The notes under the pieces: generated by a model | Database searches by the model: none | The model's input: the letters and a program-made list of their open reading frames with translations, nothing else | Told to the model about the DNA's origin: nothing | DNA from: a virus | Lineage: Duplodnaviria > Heunggongvirae > Uroviricota > Caudoviricetes | IMG/VR virus record: IMGVR_UViG_2711768010_000006 | DNA: 13,511 nucleotides | Strand: one strand, 5' to 3' | Shown here: positions 4,800-13,511 of the stretch, piece by piece | Position numbering within the stretch: the first letter of the stretch is position 1 | How the letters are laid out: the number at the start of each line of letters is the position of its first letter | Made by a program: the position numbers and the translations under genes

Positions 4800-7700
4800 A
4801 TGGGTAAAGGCAGCAGTAAGGGGCATACCCCGCGCGAAGCGAAGGACAACCTGAAGTCCACGCAGCTGCTGAGTGTGATCGATGCCATCAGCGAAGGGCC
4901 GGTTGAAGGTCCGGTGGATGGATTAAAAAGCGTGCTGCTGAACAGTACGCCGGTGCTGGACAGTGAGGGGAATACCAACATCTCCGGCGTCACGGTGGTG
5001 TTCCGGGCAGGTGAGCAGGAGCAGTCACCGCCGGAGGGATTTGAATCCTCCGGCTCCGAGACGGTGCTGGGTACGGAAGTGAAATATGACACGCCGATCA
5101 CCCGGACCATCACGTCGGCAAACATTGACCGACTGCGTTTTACCTTCGGTGTACAGGCACTGGTGGAAACCACCTCAAAGGGAGACAGGAATCCGTCTGA
5201 AGTTCGCCTGCTGGTTCAGATACAGCGTAACGGTGGCTGGGTGACGGAAAAAGACATCACCATTAAGGGCAAAACCACCTCGCAGTATCTGGCCTCGGTG
5301 GTGGTGGATAACCTGCCGCCGCGCCCGTTTAATATCCGGATGCGCAGGATGACGCCAGACAGCACCACAGACCAGCTGCAGAACAAAACGCTCTGGTCGT
5401 CATACACCGAAATCATCGATGTGAAACAGTGCTACCCGAACACGGCACTGGTCGGCGTACAGGTGGATTCGGAGCAGTTCGGCAGCCAGCAGGTGAGCCG
5501 TAATTATCATCTTCGCGGGCGCATTCTGCAGGTGCCGTCGAACTATAATCCGCAGACGCGGCAATACAGCGGTATCTGGGACGGAACGTTAAAACCGGCA
5601 TACAGCAACAACATGGCCTGGTGTCTGTGGGATATGCTGACCCATCCGCGCTATGGCATGGGGAAACGTCTTGGTGCGGCAGATGTGGATAAATGGGCGC
5701 TGTATGTCATCGGCCAGTACTGTGACCAGTCGGTGCCGGACGGCTTTGGCAGCACGGAGCCGCGCATCACCTGTAATGCCTGGCTGACCACACAGCGCAA
5801 GGCGTGGGATGTGCTCAGTGATTTCTGCTCGGCGATGCGCTGTATGCCGGTATGGAACGGGCAGACGCTGACGTTCGTGCAGGACCGACAGTCGGATAAG
5901 GTGTGGGCCTATAACCGCAGTAATGTGGTGATGCCGGATGATGGCGCGCCGTTCCGCTACAGTTTCAGCGCCCTGAAAGACCGCCATAATGCCGTTGAGG
6001 TGAACTGGATTGACCCGGATAACGGCTGGGAGACGGCGACAGAGCTTGTGGAGGATACGCAGGCCATTGTCCGTTACGGTCGTAACGTCACGAAGATGGA
6101 TGCCTTTGGCTGTACCAGCCGGGGGCAGGCACACCGCGCCGGGCTGTGGCTGATTAAAACGGAACTGCTGGAGACGCAGACCGTGGATTTCAGCGTGGGT
6201 GCTGAAGGGCTTCGTCATGTACCGGGCGATGTCATTGAAATCTGCGATGATGACTATGCCGGTATCCGCACCGGCGGGCGCGTGCTGGCGGTGAACAGCC
6301 AGACCCGGACGCTGACGCTCGACCGTGAAATCACGCTGCCATCCTCCGGCACCACGCTGATAAGCCTGGTTGACGGGCAGGGGAATCCGGTCAGCGTGGA
6401 GGTCCAGTCCGTCACCGACGGCGTGAAGGTAAAAGTGAGCCGTGTTCCTGACGGTGTTGCTGAATACAGCGTGTGGGGGCTGAAGCTGCCGACGCTGCAC
6501 CAGCGATTGTTCCGCTGCGTGAGTATCCGTGAGAACGACGACGGCACGTATGCCATCACCGCCGTGCAGCATGTGCCGGAAAAAGAAGCCATCGTGGATA
6601 ACGGGGCGCACTTTGACGGCGACCAGAGCGGCACGGTAAATGGTGTCACGCCGCCAGCGGTGCAGCACCTGACCGCAGAAGTCACCGCAGACAGCGGGGA
6701 ATACCAGGTGCTGGCCCGCTGGGACACGCCGAAGGTGGTGAAGGGCGTGAGCTTCCTGCTTCGCCTGACCGTGGCAGCGGATGACGGCCGTGAGCGGCTG
6801 GTCAGCACGGCCCGGACGACGGAAACCACTTACCGCTTCACACAACTGGCGCTGGGGAACTACAGGCTGACAGTCCGGGCAGTAAATGCGTGGGGGCAGC
6901 AGGGCGATCCGGCGTCGGTATCGTTCCGGATTGCCGCACCGGCAGCGCTGTCGCGGATTGAGCTGACGCCGGGCTATTTTCAGATAACCGCCACGCCGCA
7001 TCTTGCGGTTTATGATCCGACGGTACAGTTTGAGTTCTGGTTCTCGGAAAAGCGGATTGCGGATATCAGGCAGGTTGAAACCACAGCACGCTATCTTGGC
7101 ACGGCGCTGTACTGGATAGCCGCCAGTATCAATATCAAACCGGGCCATGATTATTACTTTTATATCCGCAGTGTGAACACCGTTGGCAAATCGGCATTCG
7201 TGGAGGCTGTTGGTCAGCCGAGTGATGATGCATCCGGTTATCTGGATTTTTTCAAAGGCGAGATAGGGAAAACCCATCTGGCTCAGGAGCTGTGGACGCA
7301 GATTGATAACGGTCAGCTTGCGCCTGACCTGGCTGAAATCAGGACGTCCATTACGGATGTCAGCAATGAAATCACGCAGACCGTCAATAAGAAACTGGAA
7401 GACCAGAGTGCGGCAATTCAGCAGATACAGAAGGTTCAGGTTGATACAAATAATAACCTGAACAGCATGTGGGCTGTGAAGCTGCAGCAGATGCAGGACG
7501 GACGCCTTTATATCGCGGGTATTGGTGCCGGTATTGAGAACACCCCTGACGGCATGCAGAGTCAGGTGCTGCTGGCGGCGGACAGGATTGCGATGGTTAA
7601 TCCTGCGAATGGCAACACAAAACCGATGTTTGTTGGTCAGGGCGATCAGATATTCATGAACGACGTGTTCCTGAAACGCCTGACGGCCCCCACCATTACC

Positions 7701-8297
7701 AGCGGTGGAAATCCATCGGCATTTTCCCTGACTCCGGACGGAAAGCTGACCGCTAAAAATGCGGATATCAGTGGCAGTGTGAATGCGAACGCCGGGACGC
7801 TCAACAATGTCACGGTAAATGAAAACTGTACGATTAAGGGCATGCTGGAGGCGACTCAGGTCAGAGGTGACTTCGTTAAAGCTGTATCCAAATCATTTCC
7901 GAAACAGGCTGGTACGTGGGGTAACACGGAAACACCAAACGGGACGGTTACAGTCACCATAAGCGATGATCATAACTTTGACCGCCAGATTATTATTCCG
8001 CCCATTATTTTTAACGGTATAGCGTATGACGATCCGGGGAGCGGAAATAACCCAGGAGGCACGCGATACACGGGTTATGGTTTTGAAGTTCGCAAAAACG
8101 GCGTATTAATCGCATCCAGAGAAACTAAAGGTGCCATTCCCGGTAGTTACAGTGCAGTTATTGATATGCCTAGTGGTGGTGGTAGCGTCACTCTGGAGTT
8201 TAAGATTTTCCAGAAAGGCAATCAGGGGGCAGGCAATATCACCGACTGTACGGTGATTGTGACCAAAAAAGCGGCTTCCGGCATCAGTATTCGTTGA
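4800..8297 (+). CDS. J: Host specificity / central tail fibre protein J (lambda gpJ-like)
   Basis: 1165-aa ORF with a GGAG 8 nt upstream of the ATG. The N-terminal ~800 aa match my recollection of lambda gpJ closely ([34 protein letters not shown]...). A central block and the last ~150 aa look different from lambda, and the protein is 33 aa longer than lambda's 1132. Confidence 0.92.
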
Positions 8298-8319
8298 AAT
8301 ATTTATAACCCCAATAAAT

Positions 8320-8346
8320 GGCGTCAGGAATGACGCCTTTTTTATT
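8320..8346 (+). terminator. Rho-independent terminator downstream of J
   Basis: Perfect 7-bp stem GGCGTCA / TGACGCC with a GGAA loop, followed directly by TTTTTTATT, starting 23 bp after the J stop. Confidence 0.6.
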
Positions 8347-8367
8347 GCAGAAAAGCGAGAGGTAATT

Positions 8368-8967
8368 ATGCGTAAAGTTTGTGCAGCCATTTTGTCCGCA
8401 GCCATTTGCCTGGCCGTATCCGGTGCGCCTGCATGGGCGTCTGAACATCAGTCCACGCTGAGCGCGGGGTATCTTCATGCCCGGACCAACGTTCCCGGCA
8501 GTGATGATCTGAACGGGATTAACGTGAAATACCGTTATGAGTTTACGGATACGCTGGGGCTGGTGACGTCATTCAGCTATGCAGGAGACAAGAATCGCCA
8601 GCTGACCCGTTACAGCGATACCCGCTGGCATGAAGATTCCGTTCGTAACCGCTGGTTCAGCGTAATGGCGGGGCCGTCTGTGCGCGTGAATGAATGGTTC
8701 AGCGCGTATGCGATGGCGGGTGTGGCTTACAGCCGTGTGTCGACTTTTTCCGGGGATTATATCCGCGTAACTGACAATAAGGGGAAAACGCACGATGTGC
8801 TGACCGGAAGTGATGACGGTCGCCACAGCAACACGTCTCTGGCGTGGGGAGCTGGCGTGCAGTTTAACCCGACCGAATCCGTGGCCATTGATATTGCTTA
8901 TGAAGGCTCCGGCAGTGGCGACTGGCGCACTGACGGTTTCATCGTGGGTGTCGGTTATAAATTCTGA
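8368..8967 (+). CDS. lom: Lom outer membrane protein (Ail/Lom/PagC/Rck family beta-barrel)
   Basis: 199-aa ORF with a signal peptide (MRKVCAAILSAAICLAVSGAPAWA) and a C-terminal aromatic beta-barrel end (FIVGVGYKF). It matches lambda Lom in position, between J and stf. Confidence 0.9.
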   Translation: MRKVCAAILSAAICLAVSGAPAWASEHQSTLSAGYLHARTNVPGSDDLNGINVKYRYEFTDTLGLVTSFSYAGDKNRQLTRYSDTRWHEDSVRNRWFSVMAGPSVRVNEWFSAYAMAGVAYSRVSTFSGDYIRVTDNKGKTHDVLTGSDDGRHSNTSLAWGAGVQFNPTESVAIDIAYEGSGSGDWRTDGFIVGVGYKF

Positions 8968-8993
8968 TTAGCCAGGTAACACAGTATTATGAC

Positions 8994-9020
8994 AGCCCGC
9001 CGGTTCAGGCGGGCTTTTTT
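8994..9020 (+). terminator. Rho-independent terminator downstream of lom
   Basis: Stem GCCCGCC / GGCGGGC with a GGTTCA loop, followed by TTTTTT, 27 bp after the lom stop and just before the stf start. Confidence 0.6.
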
Positions 9021-9031
9021 GTGGGGTGAAT

Positions 9032-12000
9032 ATGGCAGTAAAGATTTCAGGTGTACTGAAAGACGGCACAGGAAAACCGGTACAGAACTGCACAATCCAG
9101 CTGAAAGCAAAACGTAACAGCACCACGGTGGTGGTGAACACGCTGGCCTCAGAAAATCCGGATGAAGCCGGGCGTTACAGCATGGACGTTGAGTACGGNN
9201 NNNNNNNNNNNNNNNNNNNNNNNNNNNNNNNNNNNNNNNNNNNNNNNNNNNNNNNNNNNNNNNNNNNNNNNNNNNNNNNNNNNNNNNNNNNNNNNNNNNN
9301 NNNNNNNNNNNNNNNNNNNNNNNNNNNNNNNNNNNNNNNNNNNNNNNNNNNNNNNNNNNNNNNNNNNNNNNNNNNNNNNNNNNNNNNNNNNNNNNNNNNN
9401 NNNNNNNNNNNNNNNNNNNNNNNNNNNNNNGGATTCCCGCCGTCACATGCCGGGACCATCACCGTGTATGAAGATTCCCGACCCGGTACGCTGAATGATT
9501 TTCTCGGTGCCATGACGGAGGATGATGCCCGTCCGGAGGCTCTGCGCCGTTTTGAGCTGATGGTGGAAGAGGTGGCGCGTAACGCGTCCGCAGTGGCACA
9601 GAACACGGCAGCCGCGAAGAAATCAGCCAGCGATGCCAGCACATCAGCCCGTGAGGCGGCAACCCATGCGACTGATGCTGCAGATTCAGCACGTGCAGCC
9701 AGCACGTCAGCCGGACAGGCCGCTTCGTCGGCTCAGTCAGCGTCTTCCAGCGCAGGAACGGCATCAACAAAGGCCACTGAAGCCTCAAAAAGTGCTGCCG
9801 CTGCAGAGTCCTCAAAAAGCGCGGCGGCTACCAGTGCCGGTGCGGCGAAAACGTTAGAAACGAATGCGGCAGCGTCACAACAATCAGCAGCCACTTCTGC
9901 ATCCACCGCGACCACGAAAGCGTCAGAAGCTGCCACCTCAGCCCGGGATGCGTCGGCTTCAAAAGAGGCGGCAAAATCATCAGAAACGAACGCATCATCA
10001 AGCGCCAGTAGCGCAGCTTCCTCGGCGACGGCGGCTGCAAATTCTGCGAAGGCGGCCAAAACGTCCGAGACGAACGCCAGGTCTTCTGAAACGGCAGCGG
10101 GACAGAGTGCCTCAGCTGCGGCAGGCTCAAAAACAGCGGCTGCGTCGTCTGCCAGCGCCGCGTCAACAAGTGCCGGGCAGGCCTCAGCCAGTGCCACCGC
10201 CGCCGGAAAATCGGCAGAAAGCGCCGCATCATCCGCTTCAACAGCCACAACGAAGGCTGGCGAAGCCACTGAGCAGGCCACGGCAGCAGCGAGGTCAGCT
10301 TCCGCAGCGAAGACATCCGAAACGAACGCGAAAGCGTCGGAAACCCGTGCAGAATCCTCAAAAACGGCTGCCGCATCGTCCGCCAGTTCGGCGGCGTCAT
10401 CGGCATCATCGGCGTCTGCTTCAAAAGATGAGGCGACCAGACAGGCGTCAGCAGCGAAGGGCAGCGCCACGACGGCATCCACGAAGGCGACAGAGGCTGC
10501 TGGTAGTGCGACGGCAGCAGCTCAGAGCAAAAGTACGGCGGAATCTGCAGCAACGCGCGCTGAGACAGCGGCAAAACGGGCAGAGGATATTGCATCCGCC
10601 GTGGCGCTTGAGGATGCGAGCACGACGAAAAAGGGGATAGTACAGCTCAGTAGTGCGACTAACAGCACTTCCGAGTCACTGGCGGCAACACCAAAAGCCG
10701 TTAAGGCCGCGTATGACCTGGCTAACGGGAAATACACCGCACAGGATGCAACGNNNNNNNNNNNNNNNNNNNNNGTGGCTGGATTCTCAGGGAGCATTTA
10801 ACCATCCATACTGGATGTGCAAGGGTTCCTGGTCTTATGGCAATAATAAAATCATTACTGATACTGGCTGCGGTAATATTCATCTCGCCGGAGCTGTCAT
10901 TGAAGTAATGGGGATAAAGTCAGCGATGACGATCCGCATTACCACTCCGACCACATCCAGCGGTGGCGGAACAACCAACGCCCAGTTTACCTATATTAAT
11001 CACGGAACAGATTATTCACCTGGCTGGCGAAGGGACTATAACTCCAGAAATAAGCCAACGGCATCAGAGATCGGGGCGCTACCGTCAGGTGGAACAGCAG
11101 TATCATCAGTTAATCTGGCTTCAAAAGGTCGGGTAGCCGCGCTGACAGACAATACGCAGGGGGCAGCAGGTCTTGAGTTATACGAGGTGTATAACAACGG
11201 ATATCCAACAGCGTATGGAAATATCATTCACCTGAAAGGGATGACAGCCGTTGGCGAAGGTGAGTTACTCATCGGCTGGAGTGGTACAAGCGGTGCTCAT
11301 GCTCCGGCATTTATTCGTTCACGACGGGATACGACCGACGCAAACTGGTCGCCGTGGGCGCAGCTTTACACCTCGGCTCATCCTCCTGCAGAGTTTTATC
11401 CAGTCGGTGCACCAATCCCGTGGCCATCAGATACCGTTCCGTCTGGTTATGCCCTGATGCAGGGGCAGACTTTTGACAAATCTGCTTACCCGAAACTTGC
11501 AGCCGCTTATCCGTCAGGCGTGATCCCTGATATGCGTGGCTGGACGATTAAGGGCAAGCCCGCCAGTGGTCGTGCCGTATTGTCTCAGGAACAGGATGGC
11601 ATTAAATCGCACACCCACAGCGCCAGCGCATCCAGTACGGATTTGGGGACGAAAACCACATCGTCGTTTGATTACGGCACTAAATCCACGAATAACACCG
11701 GGGCGCATACGCACAGTCTGAGCGGCTCTACAAGTTCAGCTGGGGCCCACCAACATAGTCAGACTGGGCCCAGAACGAATAGCGGGAGTCAACCTACTGG
11801 AATGTTTCCGGCAGGGAGTACTCAAGTTAGCGGGACTAATCAGGTTGGTATCAGTGGCTCATTAACCAGTGGCACCTCCCAATGGGTAGGTAAATCATCT
11901 TCAGAAGGAAACCATACACACTCACTGTCCGGCACAGCAGCATCTGCGGGTGCACACGCGCATACTGTCGGTATTGGTGCTCATACGCACTCTGTTGCGA

Positions 12001-12098
12001 TTGGTTCACATGGACACACCATCACCGTTAACGCTGCTGGTAACGCGGAAAACACCGTCAAAAACATCGCATTTAACTATATTGTGAGGCTCGCATAA
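9032..12098 (+). CDS. stf: Side tail fibre protein Stf, interrupted by two runs of N with a frame change across the second
   Basis: The N-terminus from the ATG at 9032 ([33 protein letters not shown]) matches lambda Stf; the GTG at 9026 in the ORF track is a less likely start. The middle is an Ala/Ser/Thr-rich repeat, followed by a tail fibre repeat motif ([41 protein letters not shown]). The C-terminal part (ORF 10653..12098, frame 0) ends with the His-rich segment and ...[22 protein letters not shown], as in lambda Stf. The two ORFs are one gene split by the N runs. Confidence 0.75.
9199..9430. other. Run of 232 N (assembly gap or masked sequence) inside stf
   Basis: Directly visible in the sequence. 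The flanking coding frame is preserved across it. Confidence 0.99.
9598..10620 (+). repeat. Coding tandem repeat region in the stf shaft (Ala/Ser/Thr-rich, recurring K-T/S-S-E-T-N-A units)
   Basis: Motifs such as [28 protein letters not shown] and [37 protein letters not shown] recur at irregular spacing of roughly 30-80 aa. The low-complexity GC-rich DNA also opens spurious ORFs in other frames and on the minus strand (9733..10482, 9828..10595, 9864..10640). Boundaries are approximate. Confidence 0.6.
10754..10774. other. Run of 21 N inside stf, with a reading-frame change across it
   Basis: Directly visible. The upstream stf frame ends at a stop at 10799-10801, while the downstream stf frame is the one opened by ORF 10653..12098. 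Confidence 0.99.
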
Positions 12099-12679
12099 TG
12101 GCATTCAGAATGAGTGAACAAGCACGGACCATAAAAATTTATAACCTGCTGGCCGGAACTAATGAATTTATTGGTGAAGGTGACGCATATATTCCGCCTC
12201 ATACAGGTCTGCCTGCAAACAGTACCGATATTGCACCGCCAGATATTCCGGCTGGTTTCGTGGCTGTTTTCAACAGTGATGAGTCATCGTGGCATCTCGT
12301 TGAAGATCATCGGGGTAAAACGGTTTATGACGTGGCTTCCGGCGACGCGTTATTTATTTCTGAACTCGGCTCATTACCGGAAAATGTCACCTGGTTATCC
12401 CCGGAAGGGGAGTTTCAGAAGTGGAACGGCACAGCCTGGGTGAAGGATACGGAAGCAGAAAAACTGTTCCGGATCCGGGAGGCGGAAGAAACAAAAAACA
12501 GCCTGATGCAGGTAGCCAGTGAGCATATAGCGCCGCTTCAGGATGCTGTGGATCTGGAGATCGCAACGGAGAAAGAAACCTTGTTGCTGGAAGCTTGGAA
12601 AAAGTATCGGGTGTTGCTGAACCGTGTTGATACATCAACTGCACCGGATATTGAATGGCCAGTAGCACCTATAGGGTAA
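12098..12679 (+). CDS. tfa: Tail fibre assembly protein Tfa (chaperone)
   Basis: 193-aa ORF beginning [54 protein letters not shown], matching lambda Tfa. Its start shares 1 bp with the stf stop (TAATG). Confidence 0.9.
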
Positions 12680-12759
12680 ATTCGTAATGATTACCTAAAT
12701 ACGTTATTCTTTTGTTAAAAAAGTGATTTTGCTATAGGTAGGGAGTATGTTCTTGGATT

Positions 12760-12795
12760 AAGAATAAAAAATCGCCATGAAAGAGCTTCATGGCG
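12760..12795 (-). terminator. Rho-independent terminator reading on the minus strand
   Basis: Perfect 9-bp inverted repeat CGCCATGAA / TTCATGGCG (12773-12781 and 12787-12795) with a 5-nt loop. On the minus strand the hairpin is followed by ATTTTTTATTCTT (reverse complement of 12760-12772). Confidence 0.55.
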
Positions 12796-13428
12796 AGTAC
12801 ATAAACGTACAAAATGTGATGAAAGTAGAGTGGCGTAAGCCACTATATTAAGATATGACAATAGCGAAGAAAAGTAAATAACATTTTATGGACGTTTAAT
12901 TGTTAATTATAAAAACTAGAGTGCCCGATATTGTTTATCTTGCTTTAAAATAATGTACTCAAACCAAATTTTTGAGCTAAAAGCTCAAATAATATAAATG
13001 CAATAATAATGTTTAATAAGACAATTAGCTTGCTTTGTATTTTCATTTCGGAATACTGTTAAGTAACTTTGATGACCCTAACAATAGATCGGAATTTTCT
13101 TAGAGTCAATGGTCACTGTTTTTGCTTGCAAAGCAAATGTTTTGGTGGTTATAAGTCGTCTTAATATAGTCACGCATGCAACTTGTTCCATGCGGAGATT
13201 AAAGATTGGAATATAACGCGAAGATGGAATTAAATTACATTTGCAATAATTAATTTATTATTACTCAATAATTACCGATATTATTATTGTAAATTAATCA
13301 TTAGAATGCAAAAAGAAATGTAACGGCAAAATAAGAGGACGATAGCTGAGAAAAAAGCGTGCTTTCCCAATCTGGGGCAAATCACGTCTGAATGACACCT
13401 GAAAACAGGTGGTAGCCTCAAGAAGGCT

Positions 13429-13511
13429 GGTGATGCTGCCAACTTACTGATTTAGTGTATGATGGTGTTTTTGAGGTGCTCCAGTGGCTTCTGTTTCTAT
13501 CAGCTGTCCCT
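13429..13511 (+). mobile_element. IS1 insertion sequence, left end only (continues beyond the window)
   Basis: The sequence GGTGATGCTGCCAACTTACTGATTTAGTGTATGATGGTGTTTTTGAGGTGCTCCAGTGGCTTCTGTTTCTATCAGCTGTCCCT matches, as far as I can recall it, the IS1 left terminal inverted repeat and the start of insA. Confidence 0.9.
13484..13511 (+). CDS. insA: IS1 InsA, first 9 codons only (GTG start; truncated by the window edge)
   Basis: GTG GCT TCT GTT TCT ATC AGC TGT CCC translates to MASVSISCP, the InsA N-terminus, at the expected distance from the IS1 inverted repeat. Confidence 0.7.

What the first reader, a model, noticed from the sequence alone, without database searches (positions are those of the whole stretch)
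8320..9020. lom is an insulated moron cassette bracketed by two terminators
The ORF is bracketed by two clean hairpin-plus-T-tract terminators, at 8320-8346 and 8994-9020. This layout fits an independently expressed lysogenic-conversion gene placed inside the late tail operon. Lom and its Ail/PagC/Rck relatives are linked to adhesion and serum resistance, so this prophage likely changes the host cell surface.
Basis: partly seen in the sequence, partly recalled or inferred. Interest (0 to 1): 0.4.

Follow-up and report, generated by a model that had tools for sequence, protein, structure and literature searches.

The report
lom gene between two terminators

Summary
Both hairpin-plus-T-tract terminators exist where stated (8320-8343 and 8994-9020). 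They fill the only two sizeable intergenic gaps of the tail operon. The ORF between them (8368-8967) is a full-length Ail/Lom protein. GenBank records of close relatives (mEp460, 434, Ayreon) already annotate both terminators, and this J-lom-stf junction occurs in 3859 of 5426 complete E. coli genomes.

Comparison with four lambdoid phages that lack lom changes the interpretation. They keep the upstream hairpin and T-tract directly before the stf ribosome-binding site. That terminator is therefore a backbone (J-distal) element, not part of a lom cassette.

The extra DNA is window 8347-9020 (674 bp): 21 nt with a Shine-Dalgarno site, lom, and its own terminator. It has no room for a promoter, and no conserved sigma-70 promoter lies upstream. 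lom GC content equals the window average.

Published lambda array data show lom rising with J and orf-401 after induction. One study did not detect it in lysogens; another did. So lom is extra DNA with its own terminator, but independent "insulated moron" expression is not supported by the sequence.

Already known; low interest.

The parts
4800..8297 (+). Tail tip / host-specificity gene J (1165 aa); its stop codon is 22 nt before the upstream hairpin
   Evidence: Pfam domains Phage-tail_3, FNIII-A_GpJ, Ig_J, Phage_Tail_Tip and Ig_GpJ_C. ORF list.
8161..8188 (+). Best sigma-70-like site on the + strand of the window (TTGATA, 16 nt, TGgTAGCGT), inside J and 132 nt upstream of terminator 1. A weak, unconserved candidate, probably a by-product of the I-D-M and G-S-V codons.
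   Evidence: PWM score 10.2, the top + strand score. In the commonest relatives the -10 is AAGCGT (score 5.6), and the site is absent from other J alleles.
8303..8311 (+). Conserved spacer motif TTATAACCC between the J stop and the hairpin. It is present in both lom+ and lom-less phages but not in lambda. Function unknown.
   Evidence: Variant lists and alignments.
8320..8346 (+). Upstream (J-distal) intrinsic terminator: 7-bp stem, GGAA loop, T6 then ATT. It is a backbone element also found in lom-less phages.
   Evidence: structure and energy. (covariation). (present without lom). Annotated as a terminator in JQ182728, OL657226 and MF807953.
8347..9020 (+). The 674-bp stretch that is present here and absent from lom-less relatives: a 21-nt leader with a Shine-Dalgarno site, lom, a 3' spacer and its own terminator
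   Evidence: Alignment A5 against PhiR11_1 and ev017. Junction sequences.
8357..8362 (+). Shine-Dalgarno site GAGAGG, 5 nt before the lom ATG
   Evidence: Read from the sequence. Invariant in relatives. Annotated as an RBS in phage 434.
8368..8967 (+). lom, 199 aa, Ail/Lom family 8-stranded outer-membrane beta-barrel precursor. The N-terminus MRKVCAAILSAAICLAVSGAPAWA has the hydrophobic stretch and A-x-A motif of a Sec signal peptide, and the protein ends in ...GYKF.
   Evidence: Pfam PF06316, E = 2.4e-122, 1-199 of 199. 48% identical to lambda Lom. The signal peptide and the C-terminal F were read by eye from the translation; no prediction tool was run.
8994..9020 (+). Downstream intrinsic terminator belonging to the lom unit: 8-bp stem with 7 G-C pairs, 6-nt loop, T6
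   Evidence: Nearly identical in lambda and relatives. Annotated as a terminator in relatives.
9032..9198 (+). Start of the side tail fibre gene stf. The true start is ATG 9032 (MAVKISG...), not the GTG at 9026 given by the ORF list. The sequence is masked by N from 9199.
   Evidence: Pfam phage_tail_N. Alignment to the lambda orf-401 start. N runs.

Best explanation
This is the standard J-lom-stf junction of lambda-like prophages.

**Shown**
- Two intrinsic terminators flank an intact Ail/Lom outer-membrane protein gene.
- The upstream terminator is the backbone terminator that follows J in lambdoid phages whether or not lom is present.
- The variable unit is a 674-bp promoterless module made of a Shine-Dalgarno site, lom and its own terminator. 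It is joined at the T-tracts, so the 'terminator then stf ribosome-binding site' arrangement is recreated downstream of lom.

**Inferred**
- lom lies in the orientation of the late operon and has its own ribosome-binding site. It is therefore transcribed mainly as part of the Q-antiterminated late transcript, which ignores both hairpins.
- In the repressed prophage the two terminators stop any RNA polymerase that is not antiterminated. Terminator 1 keeps stray transcription from the tail genes out of lom. Terminator 2 keeps it out of stf.
- Any lysogenic expression of lom must start upstream of, or within, terminator 1. It is therefore expected to be weak or conditional.
- When made, Lom is exported by its signal peptide and inserted in the outer membrane.
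For: - Anatomy.
- Family.
- The upstream hairpin shows compensatory changes across 9 variants, and lambda carries a different-sequence hairpin at the same place.
- Lom-less phages retain the hairpin and T6ATT directly before TGTGGAGTGA-ATG(stf). Alignment A5 places the indel at 8347-9020.
- Three lom alleles that share only 45-48% protein identity with the window's Lom (window, lambda, L100) have the same junction and a 21-23 nt leader.
- A variant cassette in E. albertii has a different but strong downstream terminator.
- 933W lom, in another genomic context, has only a downstream terminator.
- There is no promoter in 8200-8367.
- Lambda lom log2 ratios after induction are -0.72, 1.54 and 6.01. 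The last value compares with 5.43 for J and 5.27 for orf-401.
- lom was not detected in lysogens in that study.
- Read-through of downstream terminators by Q-modified polymerase is established lambda biology and is stated.
Against: - Several papers state that lambda lom is expressed in lysogens, so a promoter must exist somewhere for at least that allele.
- Sequence scans detect only consensus sigma-70 promoters. Activator-dependent or alternative-sigma promoters would be missed.
- The direction of the event, insertion of lom or deletion of it, is not resolved.
- The window does not include Q or pR', so Q-type antitermination is assumed from homology to lambda-like tail operons.
Confidence: 0.7

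Rival explanations
1. lom is a self-contained moron with its own promoter in the J 3' end or the J-lom spacer. It is expressed constitutively from the repressed prophage and is insulated on both sides by terminators that belong to the cassette.
For: - Reviews and array work describe lambda lom as expressed in lysogens.
- The 933W record notes 'expressed in lysogenic state'.
- lom is extra DNA with a downstream terminator.
- The best + strand sigma-70-like site of the window lies 180 nt upstream of lom, at 8161-8188.
Against: - The upstream terminator is present without lom.
- The inserted DNA has only 21 nt before the ATG.
- The 8161-8188 site lies upstream of terminator 1, so its transcripts would meet the terminator.
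- Its -10 is degraded in the commonest relatives, and it is absent from other J alleles that carry the same lom.
- There is no promoter in 8200-8367.
- GC content is not deviant.
- lom was not detected in lysogens in one study, whose authors say little is known about the lom promoter.
Confidence: 0.2
2. The J-distal hairpin acts as a regulated attenuator for lom. A weak promoter inside the J 3' end fires in lysogens, and partial or conditional read-through of the 7-bp hairpin sets a low, tunable Lom level.
For: - The geometry fits: a candidate promoter at 8161-8188, then the terminator, then 24 nt to the ATG.
- The upstream hairpin is the weaker of the two, -11.4 against -17.6 kcal/mol.
- Reports on lysogenic expression are mixed.
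Against: - No conserved alternative (antiterminator) structure was found. Only the terminator stem covaries.
- There is no Rfam leader or riboswitch match above threshold.
- The candidate promoter is not conserved.
- The same hairpin precedes stf in lom-less phages, so it did not evolve for lom.
Confidence: 0.07
3. The hairpins matter chiefly as RNA 3'-end stabilisers or processing barriers, or as recombination joints for swapping modules. Transcription termination would then be secondary.
For: - The indel junctions fall exactly in the T-tracts.
- Other cargo (espO) replaces the lom 3' part at this site in PPompW_699.
- Chen et al. mention strong terminators flanking the lambda E gene inside the late operon, and the idea that terminators add an extra layer of control.
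Against: - Both elements have the full canonical terminator form: a GC-rich stem immediately followed by T6.
- Mosaic breakpoints also occur inside lom. The last ~30 codons are near-identical between alleles that are 48% identical overall, so recombination is not confined to the hairpins.
- No direct data bear on this.
Confidence: 0.03

Closest known systems
Bacteriophage lambda lom (J02459 / NC_001416, 18965-19585) and its J-lom-orf401 junction
   Same: - Same gene order.
- A hairpin followed by a T run sits between J and lom, and a near-identical hairpin plus T6 sits between lom and stf.
- The leader is of the same length and has the same GAGAGG ribosome-binding site.
- lom rises with the late genes after induction.
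   Different: - The Lom protein is only 48% identical. It is a different allele, with mosaic identity confined to the last ~30 codons.
- The upstream hairpin has a different sequence, CGTCCG/CGGGCG.
- The J C-terminal region differs.
- From memory only, not verified here: Luk and Szybalski (1983) mapped tandem terminators distal to J in the lambda late operon. That paper is not in the library.
Phages mEp460 (JQ182728), 434 (OL657226) and Ayreon (MF807953)
   Same: About 96% nucleotide identity over 8200-9178. The same lom allele. Both hairpins are already annotated as rho-independent terminators in the GenBank records.
   Different: Only point differences. These include compensatory stem changes in phage 434, GGCACCA/TGGTGCC.
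Morons as defined for HK97 and HK022 (for example HK97 gene 15)
   Same: Extra DNA in a late or tail operon relative to related phages, with a downstream terminator and a product that acts in the host envelope.
   Different: The definition quoted includes an own promoter and deviant GC content. Here the extra DNA has no room for a promoter, and its GC matches the surroundings.
Lom of short-tailed Stx phage 933W (NC_000924, 44693-45427)
   Same: An Ail/Lom family gene (about 40% identity) in the late region, followed by an intrinsic terminator.
   Different: A different neighbourhood that does not follow J. Upstream is a 90-nt AT-rich gap without a hairpin, so it is not bracketed.
Lom-less J-stf junctions (PhiR11_1, HannyBb, ev017, 4A7)
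   Same: The same J 3' end, the same TTATAACCC spacer, the same hairpin and T6ATT, and the same stf start.
   Different: They lack the 674-bp lom unit, so they have one terminator instead of two.

Membership tests
Ail/Lom outer-membrane protein family (Pfam PF06316) | Full-length match to the family profile above the curated cut-off | tested here: met
   E = 2.4e-122, 406.5 bits against a cut-off of 23, residues 1-199 on profile 1-199. NCBIfam equivalogs for Rck-type complement resistance (117.9 bits, cut-off 258) and OmpX (98.8 bits, cut-off 176) are not reached. It is therefore a family member but not an Rck or OmpX equivalog.
Ail/Lom outer-membrane protein family (Pfam PF06316) | Signal peptide and a C-terminal aromatic residue, as expected for an exported beta-barrel | tested here: met
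   The N-terminus MRKVCAAILSAAICLAVSGAPAWA-SEHQ and the C-terminus ...VGVGYKF were read from the translation. No signal-peptide predictor was run.
Ail/Lom outer-membrane protein family (Pfam PF06316) | Adhesion or serum-resistance phenotype | not testable with these tools
   In the papers read, only buccal-cell adhesion is reported for lambda Lom. That allele is 48% identical to this one.
Moron (extra, independently transcribed unit in a phage genome) | Extra DNA compared with related phages at the same map position | tested here: met
   8347-9020 is absent from PhiR11_1, HannyBb, ev017 and 4A7.
Moron (extra, independently transcribed unit in a phage genome) | Own promoter within or at the 5' edge of the extra DNA | tested here: not met
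   Only 21 nt separate the junction from the ATG. No sigma-70-like site was found in 8200-8367. The nearest candidate, at 8161-8188, is in backbone DNA upstream of a terminator and is not conserved. Promoters that depart from the consensus cannot be excluded.
Moron (extra, independently transcribed unit in a phage genome) | Own factor-independent terminator downstream | tested here: met
   The hairpin at 8994-9015 plus T6 lies inside the extra DNA. A variant cassette has a different terminator.
Moron (extra, independently transcribed unit in a phage genome) | Nucleotide composition different from neighbouring genes | tested here: not met
   lom GC is 0.555 and GC3 is 0.60. The window GC is 0.547 and the tail genes range from 0.56 to 0.60.
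Moron (extra, independently transcribed unit in a phage genome) | Expression from the repressed prophage | not testable with these tools
   The literature on lambda lom is mixed. It is stated as expressed, and was not detected.
Intrinsic (rho-independent) terminator | GC-rich stem-loop immediately followed by a run of T | tested here: met
   Both sites meet this.
Intrinsic (rho-independent) terminator | Structure maintained by selection (compensatory changes) | tested here: met
   For the upstream hairpin, 3 of 7 pairs carry double changes and 100% of cells are paired. The downstream hairpin is almost invariant, so it is inconclusive on this criterion.
Intrinsic (rho-independent) terminator | Termination of transcription measured in vitro or in vivo | not testable with these tools
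   No assay or Term-seq data were available.

The most novel reading that the evidence does not exclude
lom at this site is a promoterless late-operon module rather than a lysogenic-conversion moron. Lom would then be made essentially only during lytic growth, by Q-driven read-through, and any signal in lysogens would come from the spontaneously induced fraction of cells. That points to a phage-centred role, for example altering the outer membrane around the time of lysis. The paired terminators would simply mark a recombination slot where cargo such as lom alleles or espO is swapped.
Probability: 0.2. Interest if true: 0.4.

Novelty: already known. Interest (0 to 1): 0.15.

Why it matters
It matters little as a discovery. 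lom is a textbook lambdoid accessory gene. Its two flanking terminators are already annotated in close relatives, and the junction is present in about 70% of complete E. coli genomes.

The useful correction concerns what counts as the cassette. The upstream terminator is a backbone element, and the variable unit carries no promoter. Calling every lom a lysogenically expressed virulence moron therefore rests on old lambda data rather than on sequence features.

That point is worth remembering when prophage lom copies are counted as virulence factors. The lom promoter question also remains open and could be settled by a simple transcription-start-site experiment.

Tried and rejected
- **Consensus promoter scan and my own PWM scan.** Nothing was found in 8200-8367. 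The 8161-8188 site was rejected as a conserved promoter because its -10 degrades in the commonest relatives and it is missing from other J alleles.
- **Rfam search of 8000-9178 at E <= 1.** Only sub-threshold chance hits appeared (STnc40, Trp leader, a human lncRNA).
- **Consensus folding of 9 diverse upstream regions, looking for an antiterminator or a structure that sequesters the ribosome-binding site.** Only the terminator stem covaries. A 3-bp ACC/GGU contact with the Shine-Dalgarno site is invariant and unconvincing.
- **The phi24B small RNA 24B_1, described as lying 'in the lom region'.** It lies downstream of lom in short-tailed Stx phages, which is a different context, and its authors report that it is absent from lambda. 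It is not relevant here.
- **Compositional test for foreign origin.** lom is not deviant.
- **Literature on terminators distal to J, and the lambda ribosome-profiling paper and review.** None are held in the library.
- **Link between the lom allele and the J receptor-binding allele.** The same lom allele sits behind at least three J C-terminal alleles, so there is no evident link.

Full report
**What the window is.** The window is a lambda-like tail region, all on the + strand. It contains H (40-2397), M, L, K, I, J (4800-8297), a 199-aa ORF (8368-8967), the side tail fibre gene stf, and a tail fibre assembly gene (12098-12679). stf starts at ATG 9032, and part of it is masked by N at 9199-9430 and 10754-10774. 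The 199-aa ORF matches Pfam Ail_Lom over the whole profile (E = 2.4e-122). It does not reach the NCBIfam equivalog cut-offs for Rck-type complement resistance or OmpX. It is 48% identical to lambda Lom.

**The observation.**
- Upstream: stem GGCGTCA/TGACGCC with loop GGAA at 8320-8337, then T6 at 8338-8343. The stem folds at -11.4 kcal/mol.
- Downstream: an 8-bp stem with 7 G-C pairs at 8994-9015, then T's to 9020. It folds at -17.6 kcal/mol.
- In their 41-nt contexts both fold better than all 200 dinucleotide shuffles, with z = -4.7 and -4.0.
- The window as a whole is not enriched in terminator-like sites (18 against 12.8 +/- 3.9).
- These two are the best + strand sites by stem pairs or G-C content combined with a clean run of T. 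They occupy the only two sizeable gaps between + strand genes, 70 nt between J and lom and 64 nt between lom and stf.

I extracted the hairpin from 82 viral-contig loci, further genome loci and reference phages. Eleven hairpin variants emerged, of which 9 distinct stem-and-loop versions were aligned. In these, 100% of cells pair and 3 of 7 pairs carry compensatory double changes, for example G-C/T-A to A-T/C-G in phage 434. None of 500 shuffles reaches the observed covariation score. Lambda has a hairpin of different sequence at the same place. The downstream hairpin is nearly invariant, with mostly wobble-compatible changes.

**It is already annotated and very common.** The 979-bp junction matches 242 phage records at megablast level. 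GenBank entries for mEp460, 434 and Ayreon annotate both hairpins as terminators. In complete E. coli genomes, 3859 of 5426 have a copy covering at least 80% of the junction. The median is two places per genome among genomes with any match.

**What the cassette really is.** Four lambdoid phages lack lom: PhiR11_1, HannyBb, ev017 and 4A7. Their J-stf junction reads as follows:
- J stop, the same spacer with TTATAACCC, then the same hairpin (GGCGCCAGnAATGGCGCC) and TTTTTTATT
- then directly TGTGGAGTGAnTATG, which is the stf ribosome-binding site and start codon.

Alignment A5 places the difference at window 8347-9020. The upstream terminator is therefore a backbone element that follows J whether or not lom is present. 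The variable unit is 674 bp and consists of:
- a 21-nt leader with GAGAGG
- lom
- a 26-nt spacer
- its own terminator, whose T-tract recreates the 'T-tract then GTGGRGTGA-ATG(stf)' junction.

The same junction and a 21-23 nt leader are seen for three lom alleles (window, lambda, L100). Lambda Lom and the L100 Lom are each only 45-48% identical to the window's Lom. A variant in E. albertii carries a different, stronger downstream terminator. In 933W, where lom sits in another context, there is an AT-rich upstream gap without a hairpin and a single downstream terminator. In short, lom brings one terminator with it and the site supplies the other. Whether the historical event was an insertion or a deletion is not resolved.

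**Promoter question.**
- The consensus scan finds no + strand promoter near lom.
- A PWM scan gives a best score of 3.7 within 8200-8367, which is unremarkable for this window.
- The top + strand score of the whole window (10.2) is at 8161-8188 inside J. That site is upstream of terminator 1 and arises from I-D-M and G-S-V codons.
- It has a weakened -10 (AAGCGT, score 5.6) in the commonest relatives and is absent from other J alleles that carry the same lom.
- The extra DNA has only 21 nt before the ATG, so it cannot hold a promoter.
- Nothing in Rfam matches, and consensus folding shows no conserved alternative to the terminator stem.
- lom GC content (0.555, GC3 0.60) equals the window average of 0.547.

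Measured against the moron definition quoted, extra DNA and an own terminator are met. Own promoter and deviant composition are not.

**Expression data from the literature (lambda allele).** Reviews and Chen et al. state that lom is transcribed in lysogens. Osterhout et al. did not detect it in lysogens and wrote that little is known about the lom promoter. Their supplementary table gives lom log2 ratios of -0.72, 1.54 and 6.01 after induction. The final values for J and orf-401 are 5.43 and 5.27. lom therefore behaves as a late gene, which fits read-through of both hairpins by Q-modified polymerase. That read-through is established lambda biology. Chen et al. also recall that strong terminators flank the E gene inside the late operon, so internal terminators are not specific to morons.

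**Mechanism proposed.**
- Shown: the anatomy, conservation of both terminators (with covariation for the upstream one), the backbone origin of terminator 1, and the promoterless nature of the variable unit.
- Inferred: lom is expressed chiefly within the antiterminated late transcript. In the repressed prophage both terminators stop unmodified polymerase, so any lysogenic expression must originate upstream of or within terminator 1 and should be weak or conditional. Lom is then exported to the outer membrane.
- Rivals: a true independent moron with an unrecognised promoter (0.2), an attenuator model (0.07), and a stabiliser or recombination-joint role (0.03).

**Comparison and verdict.** The locus is a member of the known J-lom-stf arrangement of lambda and its relatives. 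The protein is an Ail/Lom family member. The moron label is only partly earned on sequence criteria. Nothing here is new in kind. The only added value is the clarification that the upstream terminator is not part of the lom unit and that the unit lacks a promoter. Interest is low (0.15) and the novelty rating is 'already known'.

My recollection that Luk and Szybalski (1983) mapped tandem terminators distal to J in lambda could not be checked in the library. It is offered only as a lead.

Noticed in passing
window 13428-13511: The window ends in the terminal inverted repeat and first bases of an IS1 element (GGTGATGCTGCCAACTTACTGATTTAGTGTATGATGG...). E. coli genomes with the same tfa-to-IS1 arrangement annotate an IS1A family transposase there.
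   Followed up: partly
window 12680-13427: A 750-bp AT-rich stretch (GC 0.316, against 0.547 for the window) lies after the tail fibre assembly gene. On the - strand it holds a 33-aa hydrophobic ORF (12945-13046, MKIQSKLIVLLNIIIAFILFELLAQKFGLSTLF) with a sub-threshold match to the small stress-response membrane protein YncL (E = 1.3e-5, 25 bits, cut-off 35). It also has promoter-like sites and an 11-bp-stem terminator at 12796-12772. On sequence criteria this looks more like a classical moron than lom does.
   Followed up: partly
window 9199-9430 and 10754-10774: Two runs of N (232 and 21 bases) mask parts of the side tail fibre gene. As a result the ORF list splits stf and gives a wrong GTG start at 9026. 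The real start is ATG 9032.
   Followed up: yes
L090 (LC567826, phage PPompW_699) 1500-3120: This locus has the same J end, hairpin and lom 5' end, but lom is truncated to 327 bp and is followed by the type III effector gene espO on the opposite strand. The J-distal slot seems to be a hot spot for different cargo.
   Followed up: no
L101-L112 (genome-contig hits): Lambda-type lom hits (45-46% identical to the window's Lom) turn up in assemblies of unrelated organisms such as Neobacillus, Kitasatospora, Leeuwenhoekiella, Shewanella and Pseudomonas. Several are on contigs of about 48.4 kb, and where the contig names give coverage it is often low. This looks like lambda DNA contamination of those assemblies.
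   Followed up: no
window 8368-8967 versus lambda (L003 466-1086): The lom allele here is only 48% identical in protein to lambda Lom, yet the last ~30 codons and the downstream terminator are nearly identical. A mosaic breakpoint therefore lies inside the gene.
   Followed up: partly
window 8779-9178 versus E. coli K-12 (NZ_CP014272, 1532965-1533364): The 3' part of lom, the downstream terminator and the stf start are 99% identical to the lomR-stfR junction of K-12 strains (query 580-979).
   Followed up: no
window 8303-8311: The motif TTATAACCC between the J stop and the hairpin is conserved in all non-lambda variants, with or without lom. It contains a TATAAC hexamer, preceded by TG in the 434-type variant. 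Its function is unknown.
   Followed up: partly
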